DNA of 61,473 nucleotides, from the IMG/VR virus record IMGVR_UViG_3300035534_000060, one strand, 5' to 3'. The translations under genes were made by a program, and so were the position numbers. Numbering within the stretch: the first letter of the stretch is position 1; every line of letters begins with the position of its first letter. The notes beneath the pieces were generated by a model. The model saw nothing but the letters and a program-made list of their open reading frames with translations. It was not told the DNA's origin and made no database searches. Below, one piece after another: positions 1 through 21,480 of the stretch. This stretch comes from a virus.

Positions 1-294
1 GCCAATGAAAAAGTATAGTGATGAAGATTTGATCGATATTATGGCACAGGTAGCCATAGAATTGGGAAGAACACCAAGGATGCAGGATATGCTAAATAGG
101 AAAGGTGGGCCATATCCATCACTTTAGCTACTAACAGCACTGGTTAACGTCTGGAAATTTAGAAAAGTTGCCGGACAATGCACTGAATGCGCATTTTTTG
201 ATAGTGCAAAGGGTGTGTGTATATATTACGATGATGGAGAATGTAAAGAAGATTGTGATAATTTCAAAATGTTAAAACGAGGAGGAGAAAATTA
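1..294 (+). repeat. Duplicated terminal mosaic: 1-127 copies 300-426; 128-294 is a slightly diverged copy of 61245-61411
   Basis: Direct comparison by eye; the second part differs at about 5 positions yet keeps an open frame (F->V, I->V, Y->D relative to the 61127..61411 protein). Confidence 0.85.
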
Positions 295-3812: not shown

Positions 3813-4925
3813 ATGTTAAAGGCTTACAAGTATAGAATGTATCCTGATGAAAAACAAATTGAAATGTTCCATAAACATTTTGGGGCATGTAGATACATCT
3901 ATAATTGGGCGTTGGAAAATAAAATTAAATCTTATGAACAAGAAGGCAAATCGATTTCAAGATTTGAATTAAATGGGAAAATTCGGATGTTGAAAATGGA
4001 GTTCGAATGGTTGAAAGAAATTAATTCTCAATCATTGCAAGGTGCTACTCTTAATCTGGATAATGCTTTTACCAAGTTTTTCCGTGAGAAAAAGGGTTTT
4101 CCTAAATTTAAATCAAAGAAAAATCCGGTACAATCATTTTCTGTTCCACAACATTATGAGGTGGATTTTGATGGTAACAAAGTGAAACTTCCCAAAATTG
4201 GTTGGATTAAGACAAAGTTACATAGACGTTTTGAAGGTAATTTGAAAACTGCAACAATATCAAAAACACCATCTGGTAAATATTTCATTAGTATTCTTGT
4301 AGATGACGAAAAAGATTTGCCTGCCAAACAAAAGTTTAATGAAAACAATACGGTTGGTATTGATGTGGGAATTAAGGATTTTGCCATTACTTCTAATGGT
4401 GAAAAAATAGATAATCCCAAGCATCTTAATAATTCAATAAAACGTTTGAAAGTATTGCAAAAGCGTCTCTCACGAAAACAAAAAGGTTCAAAAAACAGAG
4501 AAAAAGCAAGACAGGAGATAGCAAAACTTCATGAGAAAATCGCAAATCAGAGAAATGATTTCCAGCACAAGTTGACAAGTCGACTCATAAGCGAAAACCA
4601 AGCGATTGCACTGGAAACATTAAACATATCTGGAATGTTGAAAAATCATTGTCTTGCACAATCCATTAATGATGTATCATGGAGTTCTTTTGTAACCAAA
4701 TTGGAATATAAAGCAGAATGGTACGGAAAAACAATTCTCCGTATCGGACAGTTCGAGCCATCTACTAAAATATGCAATATCTGTGGGTATCATAACAAAA
4801 AGATTACACTTGCAGACCGTAAATGGCAATGTCCTGATTGTGGTGAAACTCATGACAGAGATGTCAATGCTGCAATTAACATTAAGAAGTTTGCCTTAAA
4901 TAAACAGAATTTGATAGGTATTTGA
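3813..4925 (+). CDS. tnpB: TnpB (OrfB) RNA-guided endonuclease-like protein
   Basis: N-terminal LKAYKYRMYPDEKQ; RuvC-like GIDVGIKD, ALETLN, HDRDVNAA; zinc finger CNICGYH...CPDCGETH. Confidence 0.85.
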   Translation: MLKAYKYRMYPDEKQIEMFHKHFGACRYIYNWALENKIKSYEQEGKSISRFELNGKIRMLKMEFEWLKEINSQSLQGATLNLDNAFTKFFREKKGFPKFKSKKNPVQSFSVPQHYEVDFDGNKVKLPKIGWIKTKLHRRFEGNLKTATISKTPSGKYFISILVDDEKDLPAKQKFNENNTVGIDVGIKDFAITSNGEKIDNPKHLNNSIKRLKVLQKRLSRKQKGSKNREKARQEIAKLHEKIANQRNDFQHKLTSRLISENQAIALETLNISGMLKNHCLAQSINDVSWSSFVTKLEYKAEWYGKTILRIGQFEPSTKICNICGYHNKKITLADRKWQCPDCGETHDRDVNAAINIKKFALNKQNLIGI

Positions 4926-5045
4926 AGCACCGTAGGAACTACGGGGAGAGCCTGTGGACTTGTTTCCGTTGGGAAAAGGAATGAAGCAGGAAGCACCATG
5001 CGTAAGCGTGGTGTAGTTCACGGGAAGGGTACAGTAGCACATGTG
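4926..5045 (+). ncRNA. Candidate TnpB guide (omega/right-end) RNA scaffold
   Basis: Locally GC-rich, hairpin-prone stretch (e.g. CCGTAGGAACTACGG) directly 3' of tnpB in an AT-rich genome; exact ends unknown. Confidence 0.3.
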
Positions 5046-5638: not shown

Positions 5639-6170
5639 TTTTTTTTATTCTTTTTAATAAAGTAAAGTTGTTTTGTAGTTCATATTATCGGATTTCTGTT
5701 TACTTTAATATTATAGTATATTACTATTATTTACCTATGTGAAACTATTTGTTCACCTATATAAATGTAATTATACTCTGATGTATATATTAAATTTCGA
5801 TAGGTGGGCTGATAGTATTTAATATAAAAACTTGCATCAAAATTTTGAAAAATTATTTTTTTTCTGTGTACTTTAATATTATAGTAATAAGTATTCTATA
5901 TTGTATTATGATATATCACATGTAATAATAATTTATACTGTAAATACAAGGGGCCCAATTTTTCAACCGAAAAAGGGCCAATTTTTTAGGCCCCTTGACT
6001 TAAAGTACACAGAAATAAAGTAGTACATGTCCTAATAATTAAAAACTAATAACAAAAAACATTATCAGGAGAACGATTAGGAAATAAAAACCTTTAATCG
6101 TTATAGGTTTAAACGTTTAAGGTTTTTCATTTATTTTCCCATTAATGTTGAAACCAAACCTATTTATAGA

Positions 6171-6420: not shown

Positions 6421-6585
6421 ATGGAAGAAATAATTGAAGGGTTCGCTGTAATCATAGTAGCATTTGTGGTGATTATGATACAAGCGGCCATATATGCTCT
6501 ATTAATTTATGGTGTGCTATGGTTCTTAGGCTTGCTATTGGGTGTAGATGTGACTGATGTGATTGTAAATTATATGCAGAGGTGA
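6421..6585 (+). CDS. Small membrane protein
   Basis: Hydrophobic core AVIIVAFVVIMIQAAIYALLIYGVLWFLGLLLG; start context AGGTGATGAT-ATGGAAGAAAT repeated at 6590. Confidence 0.4.
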   Translation: MEEIIEGFAVIIVAFVVIMIQAAIYALLIYGVLWFLGLLLGVDVTDVIVNYMQR

Positions 6586-6589
6586 TGAT

Positions 6590-6931
6590 ATGGAAGAAAT
6601 GACTGAAAAATTTGCGGAAGAGATGGAAGAGTATTTGGCCGATAGAGATATTTCCCTTGATGGTGTTAGTGATCGTTATTTGAAATATACTTTGCAGAAG
6701 ATGCTCAAGGAAGAGGCTGACCCTGCTGAAATGGCGGGCATATGCCTGTTGATGTATCAGCGTAAGAATAATGAAATAGAAAAGTTGGCCAAATTCTTGT
6801 ATATGGATGCCAATGAAGGTAGTTCATGGAATAATATCGATCATTTTGTTAAAGTTGCGTGGAGAATGGAGGCGCAATCTATGCTTAGAAAAGTCGCTCT
6901 ATATGAAAAATTTAAGGAGTCGTGCAAATGA
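6590..6931 (+). CDS. Hypothetical protein
   Basis: 113-aa ORF with the same 22-nt start context as the 6421 ORF. Confidence 0.45.
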   Translation: MEEMTEKFAEEMEEYLADRDISLDGVSDRYLKYTLQKMLKEEADPAEMAGICLLMYQRKNNEIEKLAKFLYMDANEGSSWNNIDHFVKVAWRMEAQSMLRKVALYEKFKESCK

Positions 6932-7092
6932 ATAAGGAAGATGTGCGCATATTTGGGTACGCCTGCATCCTTGTGGGTGTGCCCTATGGCTTCCTTGTGT
7001 GGGCTGATGCCATTAATTATAGTTTGATGGGGCCTGCGTATGCCATTGGAATAACTTTGGGCGGCCTGTTGATTGCGCTGTTGGCGAGGTGA
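6928..7092 (+). CDS. Small membrane protein
   Basis: 54-aa hydrophobic ORF overlapping the previous stop (ATGA). Confidence 0.3.
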   Translation: MNKEDVRIFGYACILVGVPYGFLVWADAINYSLMGPAYAIGITLGGLLIALLAR

Positions 7093-7096
7093 CCCA

Positions 7097-7353
7097 TGGG
7101 GGTAATTGGTCTATAATTATATTTTCTATTTTTAAGGGGTCTTCGGATGGGGGTATCTTTTTTATACTGGTCGGCTGATTGCGATTTTATTTTTGGGCTG
7201 ACCGAAAATTTTTTGTAGGATGACAAATTGCATATGTAACCGATTTGTTACGCATTGGCTGATAGCGATTTTGACCAGTGGGGGTAAAATGCCAATGGGG
7301 GTATTTTTGTGGAAAGGGGTATTTTGAATGGGGGTCAAATTTGAGATGGGGTA
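7097..7353 (+). repeat. Array of about 7 TGGGGGTA-type motifs plus two GGCTGAT(T/A)GCGATTTT repeats
   Basis: Motif copies at about 7097, 7148, 7279, 7296, 7315, 7329, 7347; direct repeats at 7173-7188 and 7257-7272. Confidence 0.7.
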
Positions 7354-7684
7354 TAATGTGGATAAATTTGCCGTTTTTTGGCCTTCAGATTATATCCAGA
7401 TAAGCCTGAGAACGAACAGAGATAGCCATGACAAGCATTTTGACCCTCTACACGACCTATGACCCTCGTAGAGAATTTAAACGCCACACAGACGCTCTCA
7501 CAGCCCCAAAATAGGCCATTCTATCGCCCGCTATCGAAAGCAATATCACAAATATTATTGATGCCCACTGATTTTCGCTATCGGTAGGCACATTTCCTCG
7601 GCCTAATGCCACAAAATTCACTCAATTTTATAACAATTCATACGATCACAATTAAATTCGGACATAAAAATAAAAACTTAATTT

Positions 7685-7813
7685 AAAAATCGTGACAATT
7701 TTGGGCAAAACAATTACTATCAAATAAATTTTTAAAAATCGTGACAAACATTTTAAAAATCGTGATAAAGTTTAAAAATCGTGATTAAAAATCGTGATTA
7801 AAAATCGTGACAA
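7685..7813 (+). repeat. Iteron array: 6 copies of AAAAATCGTGA(C/T)(A/T), last three tandem with 14-bp period
   Basis: Copies at about 7685, 7734, 7755, 7774, 7787, 7800 in an ORF-free region. Confidence 0.8.
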
Positions 7814-7841
7814 AGGTTGGGCCCTTTTAGACTGTAACGGC

Positions 7842-8100
7842 GTTAACATTCGAAAAAATTTTTGAATGTACACATCTGTACATTGATGTACATATCTGTA
7901 CATTGGTGTACACATATGTACAATAGAAGGTTTTTTAGATTGTTAGCCCCGTTAACATTGGCCGATTCTTTTAACTGTAACACTGTTAACAATTTATAGA
8001 GTTAACGGCGTAACGGCCAAATTTAATTTAGGTTGTTCATACTGTTAACTTTATAAATTATTAACGGCGTTAACATCATAAAAAAGCCCCGATTGTTAAC
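7842..8100 (+). repeat. Cluster of 7 GTTAAC palindromes, several within TTAACGGCGTTAAC
   Basis: GTTAAC at 7842, 7951, 7985, 8001, 8044, 8069, 8095. Confidence 0.7.
7867..7922 (+). repeat. Six tandem 10-bp repeats, each beginning with palindromic TGTACA
   Basis: TGTACA at 7867, 7877, 7887, 7897, 7907, 7917 (one helical turn spacing). Confidence 0.8.
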
Positions 8101-8313
8101 GGCATGAACTGTTATAGCGTGTGCCGGCTCTCTCACCTGTCCGGCCTATAGGGCGCCCCGGATACCCTGTGTCTAATTTACTACATGCTTTAAACCTATA
8201 TAAAGGTTTTTATTTATTACAAATAGAAACCTATATATACCATTAGCCCCTATAGAATGTTGCCCTTAGGGGCGGGATGTATGAATGGATGCAATTGAAG
8301 AATTGTATGGTAT

Positions 8314-8390
8314 AAATAGAAACCTATATATACCATTAGCACCTATAGTAGATTGTGGCCAGGGGCGGCCCTAATAAGCCTCAATAATAA
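8314..8390 (+). promoter_or_regulatory. Promoter-leader cassette (AAATAGAAACCTATATATA ... GTGGCCAGGGGCGGCCCTAATAAGCCTCAATAA) for 8407..8595
   Basis: Near-identical 75-bp copy at 8972-9050; partial copy at 8221-8275. Confidence 0.55.
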
Positions 8391-8406
8391 ACAGGAGTTG
8401 TAAGAA

Positions 8407-8595
8407 ATGAGCACAGTATTTTCCGAAGAGAACGGTTACACAAACGGATACTGTCCGGCTTGTGGGTACAATCCGGTAGAACCAGAATTCCCAATCTTCC
8501 AATTATTTGGAGATGGGGAGTATATAAGGGGGCATCAAATATGCCCTAATTGTAGGGAACTGCACCCAATTAATGAAAATATGGACGCAATCTAA
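8407..8595 (+). CDS. Small zinc-ribbon protein
   Basis: CPACG...CPNC pairs; driven by repeated promoter-leader cassette. Confidence 0.45.
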   Translation: MSTVFSEENGYTNGYCPACGYNPVEPEFPIFQLFGDGEYIRGHQICPNCRELHPINENMDAI

Positions 8596-8622
8596 TTCTT
8601 TTTTTTTTGGAGGTTAAGGCAA

Positions 8623-8871
8623 ATGGAATTTGATATTAACGAAAAAATAGCAACGATTCAAGAATGGCCTATAATAATAGAAATCTATTCCATTGATCAT
8701 GGAATAGATGAGAAGATTACATTTAAAAGCTTCGATATTAACGGGCGGCCTATGTCAGCCCGTAAATGCACAAATACAATATACACCAGCCCTAGAGACG
8801 GACGGGCCTATTTCAAACATTTTGGGGCCCGTTACTATCTAGATAAAGCTATTATGGCGGGGGCGGTTTAA
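8623..8871 (+). CDS. Hypothetical protein
   Basis: 82-aa ORF with GGAGG SD. Confidence 0.4.
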   Translation: MEFDINEKIATIQEWPIIIEIYSIDHGIDEKITFKSFDINGRPMSARKCTNTIYTSPRDGRAYFKHFGARYYLDKAIMAGAV

Positions 8872-8971
8872 ATGGATGCTGCAATGATAGGCCTAATAGG
8901 CCTAATCCTTTTAATGGTATTGGGCCTATTCTTAGGCTGTTTGGTTATGATCAAATACTGGATGAGGACAT

Positions 8972-9050
8972 AAAAATAGAAACCTATTTATAGGATAAGC
9001 ACCTATTACTAATTGTGGCCCGGGGCGGCCCTAATAAGCCTCAATAAAAT
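8972..9050 (+). promoter_or_regulatory. Second copy of promoter-leader cassette, for 9068..9622
   Basis: AAAAATAGAAACCTATTTATA plus the same GGCC-rich leader as 8314-8390. Confidence 0.55.
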
Positions 9051-9067
9051 AGAAGGAATGAATAAAC

Positions 9068-9622
9068 ATGAATAAATGTGAAAATAGGATAGATGAAGAG
9101 TACAATAAAACAATTGAAGCCTTCAATAATATGGAGATAGGCAGCGAGGAATTTAACGAATATGGCCTCGATTTTAGCCTAGTCGAGGCGGGCACGTTCG
9201 ATGATCAGCCCGAACCTTATTATAGGTACCAGTTGTCATGGGGCGGCCCTTCGGAGGAAATAAGAATTTTCGAAGGCGGCCGGGCTGAATATTGGTTTAT
9301 GGACTGGTTTGACGGGGCTAGCCGTGAATGCAGCGATGAACCAATTATTAAAGAAATAATAAACTTTTTTGATGAAGTCGGCCTTATAGATTGGACCGCC
9401 CTCATCCCAGAGCGCTGCGAGAATTGCAGCGAGATTATAAGCCCCGAGACAGGCCTATATTGCAATGAATGCCGCCCGTATAACGTGGAAATATCCTTAA
9501 ATGACTTATCACGGGATGAAGTTATAGAGGCCCTCGAAGGAATTATAGAGGCCGTTAAGGATGAATCTGAAAATTTGATAAATGTAGATGATGATTATAC
9601 ATTCATAGAGGAGGCTGAATAA
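9068..9622 (+). CDS. Highly acidic hypothetical protein
   Basis: 184-aa ORF rich in D/E with scattered Cys pairs (CENCSE...CNEC). Confidence 0.45.
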   Translation: MNKCENRIDEEYNKTIEAFNNMEIGSEEFNEYGLDFSLVEAGTFDDQPEPYYRYQLSWGGPSEEIRIFEGGRAEYWFMDWFDGASRECSDEPIIKEIINFFDEVGLIDWTALIPERCENCSEIISPETGLYCNECRPYNVEISLNDLSRDEVIEALEGIIEAVKDESENLINVDDDYTFIEEAE

Positions 9623-9783
9623 ATGCATAACTATAAAGGCATCAAATACTATATTAAAAGGGGCATGAGCGGCCCCCTTTTAATTATTCCGGCGTTTAAT
9701 GTATGCGCCCCGGTCAGTGACGAATTCAAAAAAGAAGACATAATAAAATATGTATGATAAAGTATGTATAAGGAGGAATAAAT

Positions 9784-10687: not shown

Positions 10688-10769
10688 ATAAAAACCTTTA
10701 TATAGGATAAACACCTTCTAGTATATGGGGCGAGATAAGCCCCTTAAACAGTAAGGAGAATAAGAAAAT

Positions 10770-11051: not shown

Positions 11052-11270
11052 ATGAGGATTAATATAAGTGGCCCAATATTAAAAGGCCCGGCCGATGATC
11101 AAATAATAGAACTGTTTAAAGAATATGGGTTAACTATTAAAGATGCTGATGATTATTATAAATTAGGTGGCCCTAATTTTTGCAGTCCATATAAATTTAT
11201 AGATTTAAGAAAAAAGTTTACTATCAATGAAATCTATAACATGAAGAATAAATTTTATGTAAAGTATTAA
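11052..11270 (+). CDS. Hypothetical protein
   Basis: 72-aa ORF. Confidence 0.35.
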   Translation: MRINISGPILKGPADDQIIELFKEYGLTIKDADDYYKLGGPNFCSPYKFIDLRKKFTINEIYNMKNKFYVKY

Positions 11271-11777
11271 GAGTTTTTTAACTGTTTAATTCCTTTATAT
11301 TTTTTATATTTTATATAAATTACTAGTATAGGTACTGACCCCCACAGGCTAAAAAAGTTTAGGGGGTGGGGGGATATTTTTTCTGCGGGATACCCCAAAT
11401 ATAATATGAAATAAAATTTTTCAAAGTAATTGGTTTTAATTTTTAATACCCCAAAATTATAATTATATCAAAAATTAAAAAGTAAAAGGTTTTTAATTTT
11501 AAAACTACCCCATCACTTCACCCAATCAGAAATCCTTTTCTCACTCTCAGGCCTCTCCCTTTCCCAAGGCCTAACCCTACACACAGGCAAATATTCCTAA
11601 ACCGCATCACGCCTCTCCTCAGCATCTTCCCACGCATCCTCAATATTATCCTTCTCAACCACCAAATCCTCAATCTCATCCACAATTTCCTCAGTCCGAT
11701 GCTTATAATAGCGAATCTGATCGGCCAATTCCTCATACTCGCCACGCAACTCCCTAAGTTTCCTTCGATTCATATAA

Positions 11778-12035
11778 TCACCTCATAAAGCAGCGTTCCC
11801 AAATATCTTTCGGCAGACAATGCAGCACACCATACATACTAAATATGACATCTCCCTCCCGCACATGATCATTATACACTTCACCATTCGGGTTTTTCAG
11901 CATCAAGCAACCCAATGTATCAATTTCATCAACAACCCTATAGTCGCCAATCGTAAATTCATATGGCACATCTTCATTAAAATTTACATACCAATAAGGA
12001 ATTTCTGTAATAGGAAAATTAATTTTCCTTATCAT
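11778..12035 (-). CDS. Hypothetical protein (minus-strand island)
   Basis: 85-aa ORF, stop TGA; 4-nt overlap with the upstream gene. Confidence 0.4.
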   Translation of the reverse strand: MIRKINFPITEIPYWYVNFNEDVPYEFTIGDYRVVDEIDTLGCLMLKNPNGEVYNDHVREGDVIFSMYGVLHCLPKDIWERCFMR

Positions 12036-12292
12036 AATCCCGCCTCCTCTAAAATATCAGCGAGGTCTTCTATTGTCATAATACCTGTACTACATCTCCA
12101 TATAGGAATGCTACTCTTAAGTTTAAGAGCATCGAAACATTTATCGGACTCAATCATGAGAAACTTTTTTCTCTCCCTACCTTCCATAATCTTATCATTG
12201 AGCGCATTCAATATATCTATTTCAGTATCAGTGAGCGATTCTCTAATTTCATCTCTGTCCAGAACCATATATTTATTCCTCATATTCAACAC
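12032..12292 (-). CDS. Hypothetical protein (minus-strand island)
   Basis: 86-aa ORF chained by overlaps to its neighbours. Confidence 0.4.
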   Translation of the reverse strand: MLNMRNKYMVLDRDEIRESLTDTEIDILNALNDKIMEGRERKKFLMIESDKCFDALKLKSSIPIWRCSTGIMTIEDLADILEEAGL

Positions 12293-12651
12293 TCCTTTTC
12301 TTCAAATTCAACGCCAAATGTGGGCAGCAATTCGCTCATAGACATGTCAATATGCCTATGTTGATCTCTCATATCGTCCAAATTCTTAGCATTCGTCCAC
12401 TCAATCACCTTCTCAATGGCATCCTGCAAATCTTTCAGAACCACATGCGGCTCATCCATATACCCAGCCCGCACAGAAATATCATACACGCCATTCGAAG
12501 TACACAATATCAGCGATCTATACCAACTTTCAAAAGATTCTTCAAATGCCCCATCTTGTTCAACCAGCCGGGCATCCCTTATCAGCACATATGGGCAGCA
12601 AAACCGCCCATTCTCTTCATCATAGCCACACTTATAATATTCTATTTTCAT
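12286..12651 (-). CDS. Hypothetical Cys-containing protein (minus-strand island)
   Basis: 121-aa ORF; N-terminal CGYDEENGRFCC. Confidence 0.4.
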   Translation of the reverse strand: MKIEYYKCGYDEENGRFCCPYVLIRDARLVEQDGAFEESFESWYRSLILCTSNGVYDISVRAGYMDEPHVVLKDLQDAIEKVIEWTNAKNLDDMRDQHRHIDMSMSELLPTFGVEFEEKEC

Positions 12652-12663
12652 TCTGTCAACACC

Positions 12664-13260
12664 TCACATTACCGCCATAAGATAACCCAAACCAGCACCA
12701 CATAAGAAGAATACAATCATAACCAATATGACCATTCTATTATCTTCACACTCATCGAGTTGTATCCTAAATTCACGATTCGCATCCTTTAGGCGGCTAA
12801 TTTCATTCTCATATGATTCTTTCTTATAGTCACAAAAGACCAATTCTCTCCTAAGACGATTATTAATATCCCGCTCTTTGTGCAAATCGTGCATCAACTT
12901 GTTATCACTCTGCTTTTCCTTCTCAATAGTTTCCCGCATAGTGCATTCAATGCCATGTACCTTATTCTCAAGTTCTTCAATCCGATCTTTTTTATTTTCA
13001 GCAGTGAAGTTTTTATACAAATCTTCCATTGCTTCATCTATAGTATCTCCAAATCCAGCCACAGACTCTTGCAGATTTTTGAAATCTGGCAACTTCACAC
13101 AAAAACTGTCACCATCTTTTTCAAGTTTCACATTTTTAAATCCATACTTTTCAACAAGGTCATCATCCAGTTCTATTATACCACAAACTATTCTCTCTAT
13201 CATATTATCCTCTCGATTAAATTTATCCAGTAAATCTTCCAATGCTTCCACCCTCCTCAT
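12664..13260 (-). CDS. HicB/UPF0150-like domain protein with coiled coil and C-terminal transmembrane anchor
   Basis: LEKDGDSFCVKLPDF...GDTIDEAMEDL resembles the HicB antitoxin fold motif; C-terminal MVILVMIVFFLCGAGLGYLMAVM. Confidence 0.4.
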   Translation of the reverse strand: MRRVEALEDLLDKFNREDNMIERIVCGIIELDDDLVEKYGFKNVKLEKDGDSFCVKLPDFKNLQESVAGFGDTIDEAMEDLYKNFTAENKKDRIEELENKVHGIECTMRETIEKEKQSDNKLMHDLHKERDINNRLRRELVFCDYKKESYENEISRLKDANREFRIQLDECEDNRMVILVMIVFFLCGAGLGYLMAVM

Positions 13261-13404
13261 TTACTTATCCCAGACTTCTTAATCAGCCTATTCTTTAGGC
13301 GTTTTTCTTTACCTCGTTGTTCAGATTCTTTCAACATTTTACCTACATTCATAGTATTTACCTCCTACTCTGAATAGGAGGCAAACCTATATAAATCTGC
13401 TGGT

Positions 13405-14133
13405 TTAAATTTTTAATTTGTCCACAGCAATCTCATATGGCACTTTAAAACTATGTGCGCTCCATGTATATTCACCATCATCACATTCAAAAACAAGGTA
13501 GCCGCAGTCATTTCCATAGGTGACTTTGCCTTTCCTCATAAATCCATCTTTCCATTTCCATGCAGGCGCAATAACACCAAGCATATCTTCCCAGCCAATG
13601 AAATGCAAATAATGTGCGTGACCCCTCAGAGCAACATCTACATTACCATATGTTTCAGGATACATCTTCATGGCCTCAAGATCGCCATTCAGACTCGTTC
13701 CACGGCCTTTCAGCGTTGAACTAGTGCCCACAGCATGCTTCAAATGGAAATCTACACCATCGACCTCAACATGTTTATCAATGTCAAATGTACCGCCGAT
13801 TAAATCCATAACATTTCTATCGGCACTACCATTTGACCCAACATGATAATCAGAACCTTGAACACCAACAAACACATCAGCATCAATCATGCGCAACATA
13901 CCCGCAGCATGCTCTATTTGCAAATCAATATCATTAGTCCAATTGCCAACTCCATCAGATTTTTTATTCTTACCATTAACTGAATCGCCAAGAACAAAAA
14001 CCACATCATAATGCTCGTTACACATATTACGCCATTGTTCCCAGAACATTTTCTGCACTTTATTTTGTCCAACAGCGCAACCATACATATTAGCCCAACT
14101 CGGCATGACAGATGCCATGCAGCCAACATGCAT
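13405..14133 (-). CDS. Calcineurin-like metallophosphoesterase (start uncertain)
   Basis: Motifs SDMHVG (read through the annotated Met), VFVLGDSVNG, RGHAHY; no canonical start between the upstream stop and the ATG. Confidence 0.55.
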   Translation of the reverse strand: MHVGCMASVMPSWANMYGCAVGQNKVQKMFWEQWRNMCNEHYDVVFVLGDSVNGKNKKSDGVGNWTNDIDLQIEHAAGMLRMIDADVFVGVQGSDYHVGSNGSADRNVMDLIGGTFDIDKHVEVDGVDFHLKHAVGTSSTLKGRGTSLNGDLEAMKMYPETYGNVDVALRGHAHYLHFIGWEDMLGVIAPAWKWKDGFMRKGKVTYGNDCGYLVFECDDGEYTWSAHSFKVPYEIAVDKLKI

Positions 14134-14337
14134 ATCAGAAACTACTAAAACTTTCTTCAGACTTTCACTCTCCTTATTGACATACGGTGTTCGTACTTCT
14201 TCAAACCTTTACGGCGCTTAAAAAATTCTAAAATTTTTGACAGCATCATAAATAAATAAAACCCAAAAGGATAAAAGGTTATTGGTATAGCAAAACTTAA
14301 ATAATTTAAGAACCATTATATAAGTGGTGATAATAAC

Positions 14338-15000
14338 ATGCATGTTATACCTAAAGAAAATTATACACTCGATGCCACGGCAGGCACAATAACTTTGTCG
14401 TCTCCATATGATGACCTTGATTTAGAACAGTTTATCACTGTTGTTGATTTGGATACAAACGATGTTATTTATGATGTACACCTTAAACGTGATGGTGTAA
14501 CATTTGCAAACGGCGTACTCACATACACGGCAGATAACAACATAACCAATGATGATGATGATATACGAATAGTAATAAATGATACATCAGGAACTACGCA
14601 GGCAATTGGTGGGTATAGCACTACACTGGATGCACTTAAAATAGTGGAACAAGCGCCAGTAGACCAGCAAGGACTTGATGAGAAAGTTTTGAATGCTGTA
14701 ACAGCAGCAGGTGCAAGCACTGCTGTGAATGTATTAGATAAATCACGTATCATATTCATAGTAGATGCTACCAATGTGACCACTGGGTTTGATATATCAA
14801 TCGAAGGTAGTCCAAATGGTGACGATTGGGGAGAAGTTGGTATTGAAGATAAACAGGGTGTAGAAGCAGGTAGTATCAACATAAATTCAAATGGTATATA
14901 TCTATATAGAGTAGTTGATGCACCTAAATACATACGTGCAAATATAACCAGTTATACTGATGGAACAGCATCAGCATGGATTCAGGGTGGGGCTATCTAA
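14338..15000 (+). CDS. Hypothetical virion-associated protein
   Basis: 220-aa ORF, Thr/Asp-rich, first plus-strand gene after the island. Confidence 0.4.
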   Translation: MHVIPKENYTLDATAGTITLSSPYDDLDLEQFITVVDLDTNDVIYDVHLKRDGVTFANGVLTYTADNNITNDDDDIRIVINDTSGTTQAIGGYSTTLDALKIVEQAPVDQQGLDEKVLNAVTAAGASTAVNVLDKSRIIFIVDATNVTTGFDISIEGSPNGDDWGEVGIEDKQGVEAGSININSNGIYLYRVVDAPKYIRANITSYTDGTASAWIQGGAI

Positions 15001-15380
15001 TGACATTAGACATAATTAAACCAAAACCAGTCGAAGAACAGAACGATTTGAGTAACGTAGATCTACCAGCAATTGTTGCAGCCGGAATTAATCAGGGCGA
15101 TATTGTAGATTTACATTCATGCGTAGAATTTGTAAATACGCAGATTGAACCTGATATTTCAGGTGATGATGTTGAAGGTACATTCAAATCAATCGTGAAA
15201 GAAGCCAAGCGTATGAGTTCAGATGCCGATAAACTTGCAAGAGAAGGTAAATCTGTTACTGAAATTGAAGCAGAACTTACCGGTAACAACTTCACGTATT
15301 CCGATATTGAAGCAATGAAAATTGAAGTTTATGGAACTGTAACTGAATGGAAGAATGCAATGACAGCAGATGAGGTATGA
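14976..15380 (+). CDS. Hypothetical protein
   Basis: 134-aa ORF. Confidence 0.4.
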   Translation: MDSGWGYLMTLDIIKPKPVEEQNDLSNVDLPAIVAAGINQGDIVDLHSCVEFVNTQIEPDISGDDVEGTFKSIVKEAKRMSSDADKLAREGKSVTEIEAELTGNNFTYSDIEAMKIEVYGTVTEWKNAMTADEV

Positions 15381-15386
15381 TATTCC

Positions 15387-15815
15387 ATGCCTCGTCTTAC
15401 GCTTCCAAGTGAAAGTTGTTGTTTTAGATTAGATTCAGACTACGGCTATCGGCAGCAGTTTCCGATGACGTTCAATGATGTTGGATTAAGTGATGATGGG
15501 TTTGAGACTGGAAGTGTGACTGCACCATTCTTTGAAGAACCTGTTTTCATGTATATTGAATATGATGATACTTATCTGGCTGAAGAATACCCGGATTCAC
15601 AAAGTATTGTGACATATACAGATGGTGAAATTACTATTGATTGTTCTGTAAATGTTATTAAGTGTGTGGATATTTACAGTAGGATACTTACTGCTCACGA
15701 AATTGCTGATAGAAATAATAATGTGACTTTCCAGTTTTTGAATGATGTGCCTACTCCTACACAGCAGAAATATTTGGATTGGCAGAATAGTAGAGTAATC
15801 GGGAGGTCACGATAA
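15387..15815 (+). CDS. Hypothetical protein
   Basis: 142-aa ORF. Confidence 0.4.
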   Translation: MPRLTLPSESCCFRLDSDYGYRQQFPMTFNDVGLSDDGFETGSVTAPFFEEPVFMYIEYDDTYLAEEYPDSQSIVTYTDGEITIDCSVNVIKCVDIYSRILTAHEIADRNNNVTFQFLNDVPTPTQQKYLDWQNSRVIGRSR

Positions 15816-17518
15816 TGACACGGACACTTGAAGAATTACGAGAATATCTTGTTGGCGAATGGCTCTTCGATAATGACTTCCTTGATACATCTGGAAATGG
15901 CAATCATGGTACTCCTACTGATATAGAATGGAAACCTACTGCAAGAGGACTGAAACCGTATTTTAATGGTAGTAGTTCTTATATTGATTGTCAAAACCAA
16001 TTAACAGAATCAAATAATATCACTGTTTCTGCATGGGTATATCCAAACATAAATGAAGATGGGGATAAAACGATATTGTCTCAATTTTCAGATGATATAT
16101 ACTCGGGTGCATATACACTTCGGTATAGAGCCAAAAAAAACGGTTATCACTTTTCAGTATGGACTGATGATATATATGTAGATGCTCCAATAGCATCTGG
16201 ATTTTTAAACGGTCAATGGATTCATTTTGTCGGTACTTATGATGGCTCATATATAAAATTATATCAAAATGGTGAATTAGTTGCATCTGATACACTTACT
16301 GGAAACATAAATTATGATGATGATGATGGTGATAGATTCGTGATTGGTGCTAGGGAATATAATTTCCCAGGTACTACTTGGGATGGTAACATTGGCGAAA
16401 TTGGTGTATATTCAACCGCACTCACCGATGATGAAGTCCTTGCACTCTACGAAAGCACCAAACATGCATATGGGGTTGTTCCAGCAGAACGTTCGTTTAC
16501 CCACCGATTACAACCGGAAGTCGATGCAAATACTGTCGCTGCTTTCGATATGAGTACCAAGAACAGCGATGGTACACTCATGGATTTGTCAGGAAATAGT
16601 AATCATGGTGATATACAGGGGGCTGTCAGAGCGGGTGGATATTTCACCGATGGGATGATGTCAGGTTATGGTAATCATAATATAATACAATTCAATCATA
16701 ATAATGATATTGATTTCAGTAAAGAATTATATTTAGAACTCATTATAACTATACCTGATTGGACAAAGGTTGGTAGTTACACACCTGTAATACAAAAGAC
16801 AAATGAACCAAATAATCTAAAAAATGGGTTTAATTTGCGTAAAAATTCTGATAATAATAAATTAACATTTTCGATTGGCAATAGTACAAACACTTCATAT
16901 GAACAAACCAATGTGTTATCTGAAAATAGAAAATATTTAATACAATGTTATTATGAATCAGGTGTTGGTGGAGAAATTTGGTGTGATGGGGAATATTTAA
17001 ATTCACTATCATCTATTGGAGATATTGATCTTAATACAGAACCTATAAACATTTTTAATCGTTCTGATAGGTTGAGCGATGGTCAATATATAATTCAATA
17101 TGCTAAAATAATGAATGTAGTACCAACTGATTCACAAATAAAATCCAGATTCAACTCACTTGCTAACTTACCGCTCTACACCTTCGATGCTTCCAAGTAT
17201 CCCACAAGTAGCGGTTGGACTGCAAATGTACCATACAGCAGCATGTCGATAAGTTCCGGTGAATTCTCATTCACTGATGATGGACAATTACAATGTGATA
17301 GTGCAGGTTCATTTTCACTTCGGAATTCCCATCCCTTCGATGCTGATGAATACATCAAATTGACAATCAATGGTGTCGAATATGCAGGTACAGGTAGTGT
17401 AACTGAAGGTACTGTCACTGTATCCCTGACACAAGGCAGCAATAAGATTAGTGTCAATATGGGTACTGGTGATGTAATAGACGGTATCGATATACAGTTC
17501 AGAGAACCTGTTGAGTAA
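15815..17518 (+). CDS. LamG/concanavalin-A-like lectin domain protein (putative receptor-binding protein)
   Basis: Two LamG-like units: SGNGNHGT...ITVSAWVYP...WIHFVGTYDG...KLYQNGELV...GEIGVYSTALTDDEV and a second GNSNHGD unit. Confidence 0.55.
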   Translation: MTRTLEELREYLVGEWLFDNDFLDTSGNGNHGTPTDIEWKPTARGLKPYFNGSSSYIDCQNQLTESNNITVSAWVYPNINEDGDKTILSQFSDDIYSGAYTLRYRAKKNGYHFSVWTDDIYVDAPIASGFLNGQWIHFVGTYDGSYIKLYQNGELVASDTLTGNINYDDDDGDRFVIGAREYNFPGTTWDGNIGEIGVYSTALTDDEVLALYESTKHAYGVVPAERSFTHRLQPEVDANTVAAFDMSTKNSDGTLMDLSGNSNHGDIQGAVRAGGYFTDGMMSGYGNHNIIQFNHNNDIDFSKELYLELIITIPDWTKVGSYTPVIQKTNEPNNLKNGFNLRKNSDNNKLTFSIGNSTNTSYEQTNVLSENRKYLIQCYYESGVGGEIWCDGEYLNSLSSIGDIDLNTEPINIFNRSDRLSDGQYIIQYAKIMNVVPTDSQIKSRFNSLANLPLYTFDASKYPTSSGWTANVPYSSMSISSGEFSFTDDGQLQCDSAGSFSLRNSHPFDADEYIKLTINGVEYAGTGSVTEGTVTVSLTQGSNKISVNMGTGDVIDGIDIQFREPVE

Positions 17519-17558
17519 TCGACAGGTTTTTCATATTTTTAATACTTTTTAATATGAG

Positions 17559-17753
17559 GTGAAAACTATGGAAGATTTGATAGGTACATTTATAGGCGGA
17601 GTTATCACAGGCGCAGGAATTTTGTATGGGTATTGGAAATCTATACCAAAAAAGAAAAAAGAAGCCGCATTTGAGGAATTAATAAAATCTATGGAAGATG
17701 GAGAAATTTCTGTCTCAGAAGGTATGAATGCAGCAAAAAAGTTAATTTTTTAA
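17559..17753 (+). CDS. Small membrane protein
   Basis: GxxxG-rich hydrophobic N-terminus followed by KKKKE. Confidence 0.4.
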   Translation: MKTMEDLIGTFIGGVITGAGILYGYWKSIPKKKKEAAFEELIKSMEDGEISVSEGMNAAKKLIF

Positions 17754-17789: not shown

Positions 17790-19292
17790 ATGAATTTAGA
17801 TCAGATAAATGAATATATGGAGGAGCAAGATTATGACAAACGCCAAAGAAATTATGTCAACTTGCTCTGTAATACTTTTAACATGAAAAATGCTAAAGGT
17901 GAATTATTTCCTTATAGGCCTGAAAAATATCAAATAAATTATCACGCTCATTGTATGCTTGCCATGAAAGACTATCCTCACCGTATTTGGCGTAAAGCAA
18001 GGGGTGTCGGGGCAACTGCTACTACAATGATGGATGCTTTGATGGTTTCACACAGATTCAGAAAACAAACAATACCAGTAGCATCTATAACAGGCGAACA
18101 GGCATCTGTACCAATAGATTGGTCAATTGAATTGGCTGATAATACACAAATAGACGGCTTTTTTAATAGGCGGCAAGATGTGACTACTCGATGTGTATTA
18201 GATAATGGAAGTACAATTTTTGTAGTTCCGGGGCAAAAACCTGACTCTTTACGTAGTTACCGTTCTGTATTTGTTGTATATGATGAATTTGCTTTCCATG
18301 AATATCCACGCAAAATAAAGATTGCTGGTGATAGATGTGTTTCTGAAGGCGGCCAATTAAATATTCTTTCAACTGTTAATGGTACAGAAAACGAGTTTTG
18401 GAGACTTCTTGAAAATGCTGAAGATTTTGGTTATAAGGAATTTTCAGTACCTATGTTTGATCCAGAAAAGTTTGATATAAAGAAGCCTATACCGTATCAA
18501 ATTGAGCAAGGTTGGATTAAACCTATCGCCCCATGGATGAATATAGATATGCTTGAACGGGATAGAAAGAGTGACCCGATAGCGTTTATGCAAGAAACCC
18601 AATGTAATCCAGAAGACGGCGCTACATCATTCATGCCTACTGCACTTCTTTACAGAGCATCTAGAGAGCCATATATGATAGAGCAGGATGCCAGAGAAGG
18701 ATTCGGCATATATGTATGTGGTATTGACTTTGCTACTGAAAAAGATATGTCTGCATTTGAAATTTTTGAAAAAGTGCCACAAGGTTGGATACATCGCAAA
18801 AGAGTTGCTGTACAAAAGCATGATACGCCTCAGCAAGTTCAACTATTAAAAAGTTTGCATAGAGCATTTAATTTCAAATATGTGACTATAGATATGACAG
18901 GCCCGGGTACAGGATTTTACCATTATGCTAAAGAGCAGCTGCAAACTGAAGTGATTGGAATAAATTTCTCTACAAGGCACATCATTGAACCAGATAATCA
19001 ATATTTATATAGAAAAGCAGATAAAAATGTTAGAAAGGATGGAAAAATTTCCATACCAATTAAAAGAGCAATGGCTACTCATATGAAGAAAGAGGCTGAT
19101 GAAGGTCGATTGCTATTTCTTAATTATCCAGAATATATTAAAGATTTGCATTCAGTACCATATGATTCGCTTGATGCAAAGCGCAATAAAAATCATCATG
19201 GTGATGAGTTCTGGGGCAGCGCATTGGCATTATGGGGATACCAGATGCATGAGAATAGAATATCCATACCGCCAGTTTCATTGAGGTATTAA
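17790..19292 (+). CDS. Terminase large subunit (putative)
   Basis: 500 aa directly upstream of portal-sized gene; RGVGATAT P-loop-like, VFVVYDEFAF Walker-B-like, acidic C-terminal nuclease-like half. Confidence 0.6.
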   Translation: MNLDQINEYMEEQDYDKRQRNYVNLLCNTFNMKNAKGELFPYRPEKYQINYHAHCMLAMKDYPHRIWRKARGVGATATTMMDALMVSHRFRKQTIPVASITGEQASVPIDWSIELADNTQIDGFFNRRQDVTTRCVLDNGSTIFVVPGQKPDSLRSYRSVFVVYDEFAFHEYPRKIKIAGDRCVSEGGQLNILSTVNGTENEFWRLLENAEDFGYKEFSVPMFDPEKFDIKKPIPYQIEQGWIKPIAPWMNIDMLERDRKSDPIAFMQETQCNPEDGATSFMPTALLYRASREPYMIEQDAREGFGIYVCGIDFATEKDMSAFEIFEKVPQGWIHRKRVAVQKHDTPQQVQLLKSLHRAFNFKYVTIDMTGPGTGFYHYAKEQLQTEVIGINFSTRHIIEPDNQYLYRKADKNVRKDGKISIPIKRAMATHMKKEADEGRLLFLNYPEYIKDLHSVPYDSLDAKRNKNHHGDEFWGSALALWGYQMHENRISIPPVSLRY

Positions 19293-21390: not shown

Positions 21391-21480
21391 AATAAGGTCA
21401 ATATTAAATACAAACCTATAAAAGTTTACATAAAATAGAAAGATTAATATAGGGTTAGTTATATAAAGGGATATAGGACT

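What the first reader, a model, noticed from the sequence alone, without database searches (positions are those of the whole stretch)
7093..8406. 1.3-kb ORF-free region densely packed with several distinct repeat families: probable replication origin and/or packaging region
No ORF of 60 codons or more lies on either strand between 7227 and 8406. Instead there are at least four unrelated repeat families side by side (described separately below), plus a unique C-rich segment. Multiple iteron families next to each other are typical of viral and plasmid origins and of terminase recognition regions.
Basis: partly seen in the sequence, partly recalled or inferred. Interest (0 to 1): 0.65.

Follow-up and report, generated by a model that had tools for sequence, protein, structure and literature searches.

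The report
Repeat-packed control region, methanogen virus
This 1.3-kb gene-free stretch in a ~61-kb tailed virus of salt-loving methanogens is a real control region holding a promoter bank, terminator clusters and several arrays of protein-binding repeats, and it is the genome's best, still unproven, candidate for a replication origin.

Summary
Window 7227-8406 is the longest stretch without an ORF of 60 aa or more. It has the highest local repeat density in the genome, and no small ORF in it scores as coding. The window is a circularly assembled ~61.4-kb tailed virus, probably of Methanohalophilus or a related Methanosarcinaceae host.

The region splits into modules:
- 7096-7353: GGGGGTA boxes mixed with oligo-T terminators.
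- 7380-7665: a unique segment.
- 7683-7818: six AAAAATCGTGA direct repeats in AT-rich DNA.
- 7826-8116: two cruciform-capable dyads carrying six TGTACA palindromes at exact 10-bp phase and six GTTAACGSCG boxes.
- 8124-8169: a 46-nt GC-rich block identical in a relative.
- 8191-8387: four BRE/TATA promoters, three rightward and one leftward. These belong to a family of at least 14 promoters genome-wide.

Two related viruses keep the box cores but change their number and spacing.

My best reading is a virus-specific iteron-type replication origin, insulated by converging terminators and placed beside the early promoter bank (confidence 0.4). Rivals are a purely transcriptional boundary or switch (0.3) and a packaging site (0.1). 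No canonical archaeal ORB, Rfam family, structured RNA or usable GC-skew signal was found. I score it as an ordinary kind of feature in a poorly studied virus group, of moderate interest.

The parts
7096..7353 (+). G-box array. Seven to eight direct copies of (A/G)TGGGG(G)TA(T): 7096-7104, 7134-7141 (weak), 7147-7155, 7278-7286, 7295-7303, 7314-7321, 7328-7336, 7346-7353. It begins 4 nt after the stop codon of the upstream + strand operon.
   Evidence: Conserved in L008 and L120. A second cluster in the opposite orientation sits right after the 3' end of the minus-strand operon (11343-11511).
7129..7379 (+). Six oligo-T runs (T5-T6 at 7129, 7158, 7190, 7209, 7304, 7374). These are putative archaeal intrinsic terminators for the upstream operon. 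They include the hairpin GGTCGGC...GCTGACC plus T6 at 7169-7214.
   Evidence: Sense-strand T5+ runs are 2.6-fold depleted inside transcription units (89 vs 229) but reach about 24 per kb here.
7160..7272 (+). B-boxes GGCTGAT(T/A)GCGATTTT, two copies (7172-7188, 7256-7272), and the palindrome GTAAC-N6-GTTAC (7236-7251).
   Evidence: family D10. Conserved in L008 and L120.
7380..7665 (.). Unique repeat-free segment, C-rich on the + strand, bracketed by the two converging terminator clusters. The left half (to 7543) is conserved in L008; the right half is replaced there.
   Evidence: Weak minus-strand RNA fold signal (z=-2.6), not conserved in L008.
7683..7818 (+). C-box iteron array. Six direct copies of TTAAAAATCGTGA(Y), with cores at 7685, 7734, 7755, 7774, 7787, 7800 and start-to-start spacing of 49, 21, 19, 13, 13 nt. 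It lies in and beside the most AT-rich part of the region (7620-7770, GC 18-25%). Read on the minus strand, each copy is TCACGATTTTT, i.e. a T5 run.
   Evidence: The AAAAATCGTGA core is kept in all but one of the ~19 copies in three virus variants (one L120 copy reads TAAAATCGTGA), while spacers and copy arrangement differ.
7826..7965 (.). Dyad 1. Inverted GTTAACGSCG boxes (7838-7847 and 7947-7956, both scored on the - strand) and the A6/T5 near-palindrome CATTCGAAAAAATTTTTGAATG flank six TGTACA palindromes at exact 10-bp phase (7867-7922).
   Evidence: Single-strand DNA fold -25.8 kcal/mol, z=-5.8. The TGTACA array is kept in L120 but absent from L008.
7966..8116 (.). Dyad 2. E-boxes (palindrome TTAAC-N3-GTTAA / GTTAACGGCG) at 7977-7989, 8001-8010, 8060-8074 and 8095-8104, arranged as a 29-nt inverted repeat (7978-8006 / 8044-8072).
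   Evidence: (z=-4.7). GTTA(A)CGGC boxes are also present in the non-alignable counterpart of L008.
8124..8169 (.). A 46-nt GC-rich block, CCGGCTCTCTCACCTGTCCGGCCTATAGGGCGCCCCGGATACCCTG, identical in L008. It contains the overlapping palindromes CCTATAGG and GGGCGCCC. It lies about 30-85 nt downstream of the leftward promoter, so it would be transcribed as G-rich RNA.
   Evidence: No stable RNA fold on either strand (z=+0.3 and +0.5).
8199..8210 (-). Leftward BRE/TATA promoter (AAATA-AAAACCTTTATATA), forming a palindromic bidirectional promoter with the 8191-8202 site. The predicted non-coding transcript runs from about 8175 to the T6 at 8085-8080.
   Evidence: The motif is identical to the promoter at 10691. 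It is conserved in L008. No SD plus ORF follows.
8191..8330 (+). Three rightward BRE/TATA promoters: 8191-8202, 8226-8237 and 8319-8330.
   Evidence: The consensus AAATA-GAAACCTWTATATA occurs 26 times with up to 2 mismatches vs 11.3 expected. At least 14 copies lie 35-75 nt upstream of an SD plus start codon.
8218..8387 (+). Two copies of the promoter-plus-leader cassette (F-element; 8218-8275 and 8311-8387). They are separated by the remnant of a gene start (ATGGATGCAATTGAAGAATTGTATGG, about 8286-8311). A third copy lies at 8971-9047, outside the finding.
   Evidence: In L008 the same cassette precedes intact small genes at 8127, 8624, 9175, 9898 and 11355.

Best explanation
The stretch is the main non-coding control region of a ~61.4-kb circularly assembled tailed virus of Methanohalophilus-like methanogens. 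I read it as a virus-specific, iteron-type origin of replication sitting between a terminator zone and the bank of early promoters.

Proposed mechanism, with shown and inferred steps marked:
1. Transcription of the upstream operon stops in the oligo-T / G-box zone at 7129-7379. The motifs are shown; termination is inferred.
2. A virus-encoded initiator binds the six AAAAATCGTGA direct repeats and opens the adjoining AT-rich DNA at 7620-7770. My favoured candidate is the 920-aa PrimPol protein with a degenerate P-loop. This step is inferred.
3. The two ~130-bp dyads bind dimeric accessory or regulatory proteins that shape or gate the complex. The dyads carry the 10-bp-phased TGTACA palindromes and the GTTAACGSCG palindromes. 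This step is inferred.
4. The consensus leftward promoter at 8210 transcribes the invariant GC-rich block towards the arrays. This would give transcriptional activation or an RNA primer, as in phage T4 oriF/oriG or lactococcal phage c2. The transcript is then stopped by T6 runs and the T5 run in each C-box. The promoter and T-runs are shown; the role is inferred.
5. Three rightward promoters drive the small early genes. This assignment rests on sequence and position.
For: - It is the longest ORF-free stretch and the highest repeat density in the genome. No coding signal was found.
- Each repeat family is 100- to 1000-fold enriched locally.
- The C-box has classic iteron properties: direct repeats, one orientation, an 11-nt core kept in all but one of the ~19 copies of three variants, and variable spacing and copy layout. 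The array lies in and beside 18-25% GC DNA.
- The three other AAATCGTGA(T) sites in the genome all lie in or beside the PrimPol gene, in different reading frames.
- GTTAACGSCG occurs only here, three per strand, within two dyads with DNA fold z=-5.8 and -4.7.
- L008 keeps the C-boxes, E-boxes, G-boxes and the 46-nt block although 7544-8116 no longer aligns.
- Ordinary operators of this virus are single inverted pairs beside a promoter. The 6+6+6 arrays here are far more elaborate.
- Converging terminator clusters bracket the core.
- A consensus-quality leftward promoter with no ORF behind it points into the arrays.
- The virus encodes its own replisome: PolB, PrimPol, XPD-like helicase, RFC-like clamp loader, exonuclease and RecU. 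It therefore needs a cis-acting start site.
- No other intergenic region shows comparable arrays.
Against: - No initiator or recognisable DNA-binding gene is adjacent. The replication genes lie at 39-56 kb.
- The AT-rich part is only in the top 3% of least stable windows. 11230-11498 and 5698-5938 are less stable.
- GC skew gives no origin signal.
- The TGTACA array is missing in L008, and the G-box zone tolerates a 0.9-kb HNH insertion in L120. Those parts are therefore not essential in fixed geometry.
- C-boxes and G-boxes coincide with oligo-T runs, so they can be read as terminator modules.
- A T4-like replisome could rely mostly on recombination-primed replication.
- Only three closely related variants exist, so conservation of the cores is weak evidence.
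Confidence: 0.4

Rival explanations
1. Purely transcriptional boundary and switch. The region ends the upstream operon at the G-box / oligo-T zone and ends the leftward non-coding transcript at the T6 runs and the TCACGATTTTT array. It also holds operator arrays (E-boxes, TGTACA boxes, the CCTATAGG block) through which viral regulators control the early promoter bank. It has no origin function.
For: - Four consensus promoters lie at 8191-8330.
- T5+ runs are depleted in genes but clustered in converging orientation at 7129-7379 (+) and 7666-7858 (-).
- Both G-box clusters in the genome lie just downstream of an operon's 3' end in the sense orientation.
- Single G-boxes occur in other intergenic gaps: 2149, 10097, 11002.
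- Palindromic 13-mers are typical operators.
- CCTATAG recurs in the promoter cassettes and in the invariant block.
- The HF2 halovirus precedent shows promoter-bearing repeats and a complex repeat-containing bidirectional promoter region (PMC8707807).
Against: - The arrays lie 90-540 nt from the rightward TATA boxes, not over them.
- The virus's other operators are single inverted pairs 30-90 nt from a promoter.
- An invariant non-T core (TCACGA / AATCGTGA) is not needed for oligo-T termination.
- Eighteen or more binding sites for one promoter bank is excessive.
- This reading does not explain the isolated C-box cores in the PrimPol gene.
Confidence: 0.3
2. Packaging recognition region (pac site or virion DNA terminus). 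The small terminase or another packaging protein binds the phased TGTACA and GTTAAC arrays, much as P1 pacase binds clustered hexamers. The early promoters would then sit just inside the genome end, as in T7 or HF2.
For: - Phased short palindromes resemble the clustered hexamers of the P1 pac site (my own knowledge).
- A non-coding repeat zone followed by tandem strong early promoters resembles the left ends of T7 and HF1/HF2-type genomes (my own knowledge; PMC8707807).
- The characterised TerL relatives are HF2-group haloviruses at about 26% identity; the best match overall is two uncultivated Methanofastidiosa viruses at 27-28%.
Against: - terL (17790) is 9.4 kb away, and no terS was recognised anywhere.
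- Two independent full-length assemblies close as circles at different break points: a 58-nt overlap in the window, and a different break point in the 62,043-nt JGI contig.
- At least seven contigs read straight through the region.
- The TGTACA array is absent in L008 although its TerL region is 97% identical.
Confidence: 0.1
3. Centromere-like partition or plasmid-maintenance site for an episomal carrier state. Phased repeats would be bound cooperatively by a ParR/ParB-type adaptor.
For: - Six palindromes at exact 10-bp phase, and arrays of 6-7 direct repeats, resemble parC of plasmid R1 and heptad arrays of pSM19035 (my own knowledge).
- No integrase was found among the proteins scanned.
Against: - No ParA, ParB or ParM homologue was detected in any scan.
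- The TGTACA array is dispensable in L008.
- There is no evidence for lysogeny.
Confidence: 0.07
4. Host-initiator origin. The G-boxes are degenerate origin recognition boxes that recruit host Orc1/Cdc6 and MCM.
For: - The Methanomicrobia ORB consensus ends in the G-string GGGGT (Ori-Finder 2, PMC4164010).
- GACCAGTGGGGGTA at 7272-7286 equals the ORB left half (TCCAGTGG) fused directly to the G-string.
- No MCM or Orc1 gene was found in the virus.
Against: - The full ORB pattern TCCASTKGAAAYRAWGGGGT has no match with up to 3 mismatches in the region. Its only hit in the window is at chance level and inside a gene.
- The mini-ORB core CCASTKGAAA is not enriched (12 vs 14.1 expected) and is absent from the region.
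- The boxes lack the 8-nt central part that Orc1 contacts.
- All boxes are in one orientation rather than inverted around a DUE.
- A 0.9-kb insertion is tolerated among them.
Confidence: 0.05
5. The conserved unique parts encode structured non-coding RNAs.
For: - A consensus leftward promoter precedes the invariant block, with T-runs 60-100 nt downstream in both viruses.
- The minus strand of 7360-7640 folds with z=-2.6.
Against: - No Rfam family reaches its gathering score. The sub-threshold hits are hairpin-type miRNA models on the palindromes.
- The block itself folds no better than shuffles (z=+0.3 and +0.5).
- The right half of the 7360-7640 fold is not conserved in L008.
Confidence: 0.05

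Closest known systems
Iteron-type origins of plasmids and phages (lambda ori, P1 oriR, RK2 oriV, R6K gamma ori)
   Same: There is a cluster of 5-8 direct repeats with a fixed core and variable spacers next to AT-rich DNA, with extra inverted repeats and a GC-rich block. The array layout varies between close relatives while the core is fixed.
   Different: - The repeats are short (11-13 nt vs 17-22 nt) and their spacing is not helically phased (13, 13, 19, 21, 49).
- No Rep/initiator gene is adjacent or overlapping.
- The host is archaeal, and there is no sequence similarity to any known iteron.
- Function is untested.
Archaeal chromosomal origins (ORB / mini-ORB elements around an AT-rich DUE, next to orc1/cdc6)
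   Same: It is a non-coding region with an AT-rich stretch and repeated boxes. The G-boxes share the GGGGT 'G-string' and, in one copy, CCAGTGG with the Methanomicrobia ORB.
   Different: - The canonical ORB and mini-ORB are absent.
- No orc1/cdc6 gene is nearby.
- The boxes are unidirectional rather than inverted around the DUE.
Halovirus HF2 intergenic repeats (class I, 58 bp) and its repeat-containing bidirectional promoter region (Russ, Pfeiffer, Dyall-Smith 2021, PMC8707807)
   Same: A 58-78-nt cassette is repeated upstream of small genes. It has a TATA-containing block plus conserved downstream blocks, kept in position in relatives, and there is one palindromic bidirectional promoter (paper). 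This is the best match for the 8191-8387 part.
   Different: - There is no sequence similarity.
- Here two cassettes stand in tandem after loss of the intervening gene.
- The HF2 IRs have experimentally shown promoter activity; these do not.
Transcription-primed phage origins (T4 oriF/oriG; lactococcal phage c2 ori). This comparison rests on my own knowledge.
   Same: A promoter fires into a non-coding origin region and makes an untranslated transcript. The virus has a T4-like replisome set (PolB, clamp loader, primase, helicase, recombination nucleases).
   Different: T4 origins are minimal (a promoter plus a DUE) and lack iteron arrays. R-loop formation here is pure inference. The transcript region is only moderately G-rich.
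P1 pac site and R1 parC. This comparison rests on my own knowledge.
   Same: Clusters of short hexamer or 11-bp repeats are arranged on one DNA face. The TGTACA array has exact 10-bp phase.
   Different: The region is not near the terminase genes, and no Par proteins were found. The array is absent from one close relative.

Membership tests
Archaeal Orc1/Cdc6-ORB origin | Several copies of the ORB or mini-ORB consensus (Methanomicrobia: TCCA[GC]T[GT]GAAA[CT][AG]A[AT]GGGGT) | tested here: not met
   No match with up to 3 mismatches in 7093-8406. The single window hit at 60433 is at chance level. The mini-ORB core is not enriched and is absent from the region.
Archaeal Orc1/Cdc6-ORB origin | Initiator gene (orc1/cdc6 or whiP) adjacent to the origin | tested here: not met
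   Flanking genes have no such domain. The only AAA+ protein is an RFC-like clamp loader at 50697-51593.
Archaeal Orc1/Cdc6-ORB origin | AT-rich unwinding element flanked by inverted boxes | tested here: inconclusive
   7620-7770 has 18-25% GC but ranks only in the top 3% of least stable windows. The boxes beside it are direct repeats, not inverted.
Iteron-type plasmid/phage origin | Array of at least 3 direct repeats with a conserved core in one orientation | tested here: met
   Six AAAAATCGTGA copies, all on the + strand. The core is kept in all but one copy across three variants.
Iteron-type plasmid/phage origin | Cognate initiator gene encoded next to or over the iterons | tested here: not met
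   No candidate is adjacent. The PrimPol gene is about 30 kb away, although it carries the only other AAATCGTGA sites.
Iteron-type plasmid/phage origin | Supports autonomous or initiator-dependent replication | not testable with these tools
   This needs cloning into a Methanosarcinales host, or marker-frequency data.
Promoter-bearing intergenic repeats (HF2 class I type) | Repeated cassette containing BRE/TATA, placed upstream of genes at several loci and conserved in relatives | tested here: met
   AAATAGAAACCTWTATATA occurs at 14 or more gene-proximal sites. Cassettes at 8218, 8311 and 8971 recur in L008 at 8127, 8624, 9175, 9898 and 11355.
Promoter-bearing intergenic repeats (HF2 class I type) | Demonstrated promoter activity / mapped TSS | not testable with these tools
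   No transcript data are available.
pac/cos packaging site | Located in or beside the terminase genes, or at mapped virion DNA ends | tested here: not met
   terL is at 17790-19292 and no terS was recognised. Assemblies close as circles at other points and read through the region. Physical ends cannot be mapped without reads.
Archaeal intrinsic (oligo-T) terminators | T5+ run on the non-template strand downstream of a transcription unit | tested here: met
   Six + strand runs lie in 7129-7379 after the stop codon at 7092. Nine - strand runs lie in 7666-7858, plus one at 8080-8085. Sense T5+ runs are depleted 2.6-fold in genes. Actual termination was not shown.
Known structured RNA family (Rfam 15) | Covariance-model match at the gathering score | tested here: not met
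   No match in the window. Only sub-threshold miRNA-hairpin hits fall on the palindromes.

The most novel reading that the evidence does not exclude
The region is the first recognisable replication origin of a tailed virus of methanogens, and it works by a hybrid mechanism. A virus-encoded PrimPol-NTPase binds the AAAAATCGTGA iterons. Initiation is primed or activated by a G-rich non-coding transcript from the palindromic bidirectional promoter. The unidirectional GGGGGTA boxes are cut-down relatives of the host ORB G-string. They occur as two oppositely oriented clusters 4 kb apart, at 7.1-7.35 kb and 11.3-11.5 kb, and would act as polar barriers or host-factor landing pads that delimit the early and origin domain.
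Probability: 0.1. Interest if true: 0.7.

Novelty: new member of a known kind. Interest (0 to 1): 0.38.

Why it matters
Origins of replication, packaging signals and regulatory circuits of archaeal tailed viruses, and of methanogen viruses in particular, are almost unmapped. This region gives a compact, well-delimited set of cis elements: a promoter consensus, terminator clusters and four new box motifs whose cores are kept across variants. These can be tested directly by EMSA or DAP-seq with the viral proteins. If origin activity is confirmed, the region could seed shuttle vectors or copy-control tools for Methanohalophilus and other Methanosarcinaceae. If it is only a transcriptional boundary, it is still a clean example of converging oligo-T terminator arrays and HF2-like promoter cassettes outside the haloviruses.

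Tried and rejected
- **Hidden protein-coding sequence.** Rejected. Coding scores are at or below zero, and frameshifts between variants break the ORFs.
- **Known RNA families, tRNA or tmRNA.** None found. Folding of the GC-rich block is no better than shuffles. I looked for a group I intron around the HNH insertion in L120 and found none.
- **Canonical ORB or mini-ORB.** Absent.
- **GC skew as an origin test.** Raw cumulative skew only tracks gene orientation. 4-fold-site skew of + strand genes ranges from -0.01 to -0.21 with SE 0.05-0.11, so there is no significant switch.
- **Exceptional conservation of 7093-7540 (97% with L008).** Rejected as evidence, because shared modules of the two genomes are 92-98% identical throughout.
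- **GTTAAC as a restriction site avoided elsewhere.** Rejected. Outside the region there are 3 observed vs 4.1 expected under a Markov model.
- **Wider relatives.**
  - The phage database has no DNA match.
  - IMG/VR pattern scans for C-box arrays and for the invariant block return only this virus and L008.
  - The metagenome scan and the protein search with the upstream 113-aa gene give only relatives of 89% identity or more.
  - Loci L009-L016 share only one domain of the 184-aa protein and are not syntenic.
- **Rival origin at the divergent helicase/primase intergenic region (44146-44348).** It has promoters and one operator pair but no arrays.
- **terS search, to place a pac site.** No hit.
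- **Contig ends as a proxy for physical termini.** The breaks map to the TnpB element at about 4938 or to scattered positions, so they are not informative.
Full report
**What the window is.** The 61,473-nt window carries a 58-nt terminal overlap, so it is a circular assembly of about 61,415 nt.
- It encodes a large terminase subunit, an HK97-type capsid protein, tail proteins, family-B DNA polymerase, a 920-aa PrimPol protein, an XPD-like helicase, an RFC-like clamp loader, an exonuclease, RecU, ribonucleotide reductase, a Dam-class methylase and a TnpB element.
- TerL is nearest to archaeal tailed viruses, at 26-28% identity.
- TnpB is 84-88% identical to copies in Methanohalophilus genomes and 72-79% to Methanolobus. 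The host is therefore most likely Methanohalophilus or a related Methanosarcinaceae, and archaeal rules apply: BRE/TATA promoters and oligo-T terminators.
- The same virus occurs at 100% identity across the compared stretch (window 6501-9700) in contigs from several JGI and SRA samples.
- Two variants exist: L008 (IMG/VR 3300028034_000003, 60.5 kb) and the fragment L120.

**Check of the observation.** 7227-8406 is the longest stretch without an ORF of 60 aa or more. It holds the top local repeat density in the genome. No ORF of 25 aa or more in it scores as coding, and indels between variants break the two longest + strand candidates, 7220-7327 and 7328-7462.

**Anatomy, left to right.**
1. 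7096-7353 holds seven or eight unidirectional (A/G)TGGGG(G)TA(T) boxes, starting 4 nt after the upstream stop codon. They are interleaved with six T5-T6 runs and a hairpin followed by T6. A second cluster of the same boxes lies in the opposite orientation just after the 3' end of the minus-strand operon, at 11343-11511. Single boxes occur in three other intergenic gaps.
2. 7380-7665 is unique sequence, C-rich on the + strand.
3. 7683-7818 holds six direct TTAAAAATCGTGA repeats. They lie in and beside DNA of 18-25% GC (7620-7770).
4. 7826-7965 and 7966-8116 are two dyad-symmetric blocks, with DNA fold z=-5.8 and -4.7. They carry six TGTACA palindromes at exactly 10-bp spacing, and six GTTAACGSCG boxes, three per strand, that occur nowhere else in the genome.
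5. 8124-8169 is a 46-nt GC-rich block identical in L008.
6. 8191-8387 holds four promoters.

**The promoters.** The 58-nt 'repeat' is a promoter cassette. Its core, AAATA-GAAACCTWTATATA, has a BRE-like purine block directly upstream of a TATA box. It recurs at 14 or more sites, each 35-75 nt upstream of a Shine-Dalgarno sequence and start codon.
- Copies at 8226 and 8319 stand in tandem. The short sequence between them looks like the remnant of a gene start, which suggests an intervening gene was lost there. In L008 the same cassettes precede intact small genes.
- The 8191/8210 pair is a palindromic bidirectional promoter. Its leftward half is as good as bona fide promoters, being identical to the one at 10691, yet no ORF follows it. 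It would produce a non-coding transcript across the invariant block and towards the arrays.
- This part closely parallels the promoter-bearing intergenic repeats of halovirus HF2 (PMC8707807).

**Terminators.** T5+ runs are 2.6-fold depleted on the sense strand of all transcription units (89 vs 229). In the region they cluster in converging orientation: six on the + strand in 7129-7379 and nine on the - strand in 7666-7858, plus one at 8080-8085. Each C-box read on the minus strand is TCACGATTTTT. The core 7380-7665 is therefore bracketed by terminator clusters. Part of the 'iteron' signal has a transcriptional reading.

**Comparison with relatives.**
- Shared modules of the window and L008 are 92-98% identical genome-wide. 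The 97% identity of 7093-7540 is therefore unremarkable.
- 7544-8116 does not align with L008 at all. Even so, the L008 counterpart carries seven AAAAATCGTGA copies and about six GTTA(A)CGGC boxes, and it has AT-rich filler in place of the TGTACA array.
- L120 keeps the TGTACA array and re-arranges the C-box spacers. It also has a 0.9-kb HNH-endonuclease insertion among the G-boxes, flanked by TGACCAGTnnGGGT copies.
- Across all three variants the 11-nt C-box core changes in only one copy (TAAAATCGTGA in L120), while spacers and layout do change. That is the behaviour expected of protein-binding sites. With so few close relatives, however, recent duplication cannot be excluded.

**Tests of specific interpretations.**
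- Canonical host ORB: absent. The G-box shares only the GGGGT G-string, plus CCAGTGG in one copy.
- Structured RNA: no Rfam family, and no fold signal in the invariant block.
- GC skew: uninformative.
- DNA stability: the AT-rich part is in the top 3% of least stable windows but is not the minimum.
- Packaging: terL is 9.4 kb away, no terS was found, two full-length assemblies close as circles at different break points, and contigs read through the region.
- Ordinary operators: the motif TTTCTGTGTACTTTAA (7 copies vs 0.13 expected) occurs as single inverted pairs 30-90 nt upstream of the promoters at 21411 and 44290. The 6+6+6 arrays here go well beyond this virus's usual promoter control.
- The three AAATCGTGA sites outside the array all lie in or beside the PrimPol gene, in different reading frames. 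The whole-genome expectation is 0.64. This is a suggestive link to the candidate initiator, but a weak one.

**Verdict.** The region is a genuine composite cis-acting control region.
- The promoter bank and terminator clusters are well supported by sequence and position.
- The C, D and E arrays are best explained as binding sites for at least three different proteins.
- I favour an iteron-type, virus-specific replication origin that is insulated by converging terminators and possibly activated or primed by the leftward transcript (0.4).
- A purely transcriptional boundary or switch is the main rival (0.3).
- Next come a packaging site (0.1), a partition site (0.07), a host-ORB origin (0.05) and RNA genes (0.05).
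- In kind this is an ordinary feature of viral genomes. Its interest lies in the host group, where no origin or regulatory map exists.

Noticed in passing
window 3813-4925: A TnpB (IS200/IS605 family, 370 aa) sits inside the viral genome. It is 84-88% identical to copies in Methanohalophilus euhalobius and Methanohalophilus sp. RSK, and 72-79% to Methanolobus. This points to the host. Three of the SRA (Logan) contigs start just after it, at about 4938-4984.
   Followed up: partly
window 11271-11596 (boxes at 11343, 11396, 11452, 11511 on the - strand; 11362 on the +): A second cluster of GGGGTA(T) boxes lies in the convergent intergenic region. This region also contains the least stable, most AT-rich DNA of the genome (11230-11329 and 11399-11498, GC 13-14%). 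It is nearly identical in L008 (2-3 differences in ~326 nt). It could be a terminator zone or an alternative origin candidate.
   Followed up: partly
window 39600, 39834, 41896 (+ strand): The only AAATCGTGA(T) sites outside the array lie in or next to the 920-aa PrimPol gene, in different reading frames. The whole-genome expectation is 0.64.
   Followed up: partly
window 5693, 5861, 6000(-), 21343(-)/21366, 44199(-)/44222: A further motif family, TTTCTGTGTACTTTAA, has 7 copies against 0.13 expected. It forms inverted pairs just upstream of the promoters at 21411 and 44290, and has three copies in the ORF-poor AT-rich stretch 5639-6170. It is probably the operator of a viral regulator.
   Followed up: partly
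whole window outside 7093-8406: Several short palindromes are strongly avoided relative to Markov expectation: AGCT 9 vs 121, GATC 93 vs 221, CGCG 0 vs 32, CTAG 68 vs 121, GATATC 1 vs 22, CTGCAG 0 vs 14. This looks like restriction avoidance. The virus also encodes a D12-class adenine methylase at 52868-53635.
   Followed up: no
L120 2584-3490 (between window 7284 and 7315): A 0.9-kb insertion carrying an HNH endonuclease gene with its own TATA flanked by two GGGGGTAG boxes. The insertion is bounded by TGACCAGTnnGGGT copies. Extra small zinc-ribbon genes lie before the G-box zone. No group I intron was detected.
   Followed up: partly
L160-L167 (IMG/VR contigs): Arrays of TGTACA at exact 10-bp period (4-8 copies) occur in intergenic DNA of eight IMG/VR contigs (three near-duplicate pairs, so about five distinct arrays) that show no other link to this virus. 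Chance expectation is below 0.001. This looks like convergent use of the same phased palindrome.
   Followed up: no
L124-L159 (IMG/VR contigs); L011 6640-6745: Arrays of TGGGGGTAT-type boxes occur in non-coding DNA of many unrelated viral contigs, some just upstream of P4-type integrase genes. They also occur in the 1.37-kb ORF-free, multi-repeat region of L011 (6201-7565), an unrelated 66-kb virus.
   Followed up: no
window 14312-17567 vs L008 15221-17157: The block upstream of terL differs between the two viruses. In the window it encodes a 567-aa Laminin_G_3 / virion-structural-like protein and three smaller proteins. In L008 it is replaced by an unrelated 430-aa protein. This is possibly a host-range cassette.
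   Followed up: no
window 11597-14133 (- strand genes): This minus-strand block has anomalous 4-fold-site composition: coding-strand GC4 skew +0.34 and AT4 skew -0.39. Other gene sets range from -0.21 to -0.01. The cause may be foreign origin or wrong ORF choice in my crude gene set.
   Followed up: no
window 1-58 and 61416-61473: An exact 58-nt terminal direct repeat is present, which is an assembly overlap. The JGI contig of the same virus (62,043 nt) is broken at about 38.2 kb and is about 630 nt longer than the genome, which implies a terminal overlap of that size (ends not inspected). Whether that longer overlap reflects a real terminal repeat was not resolved.
   Followed up: partly
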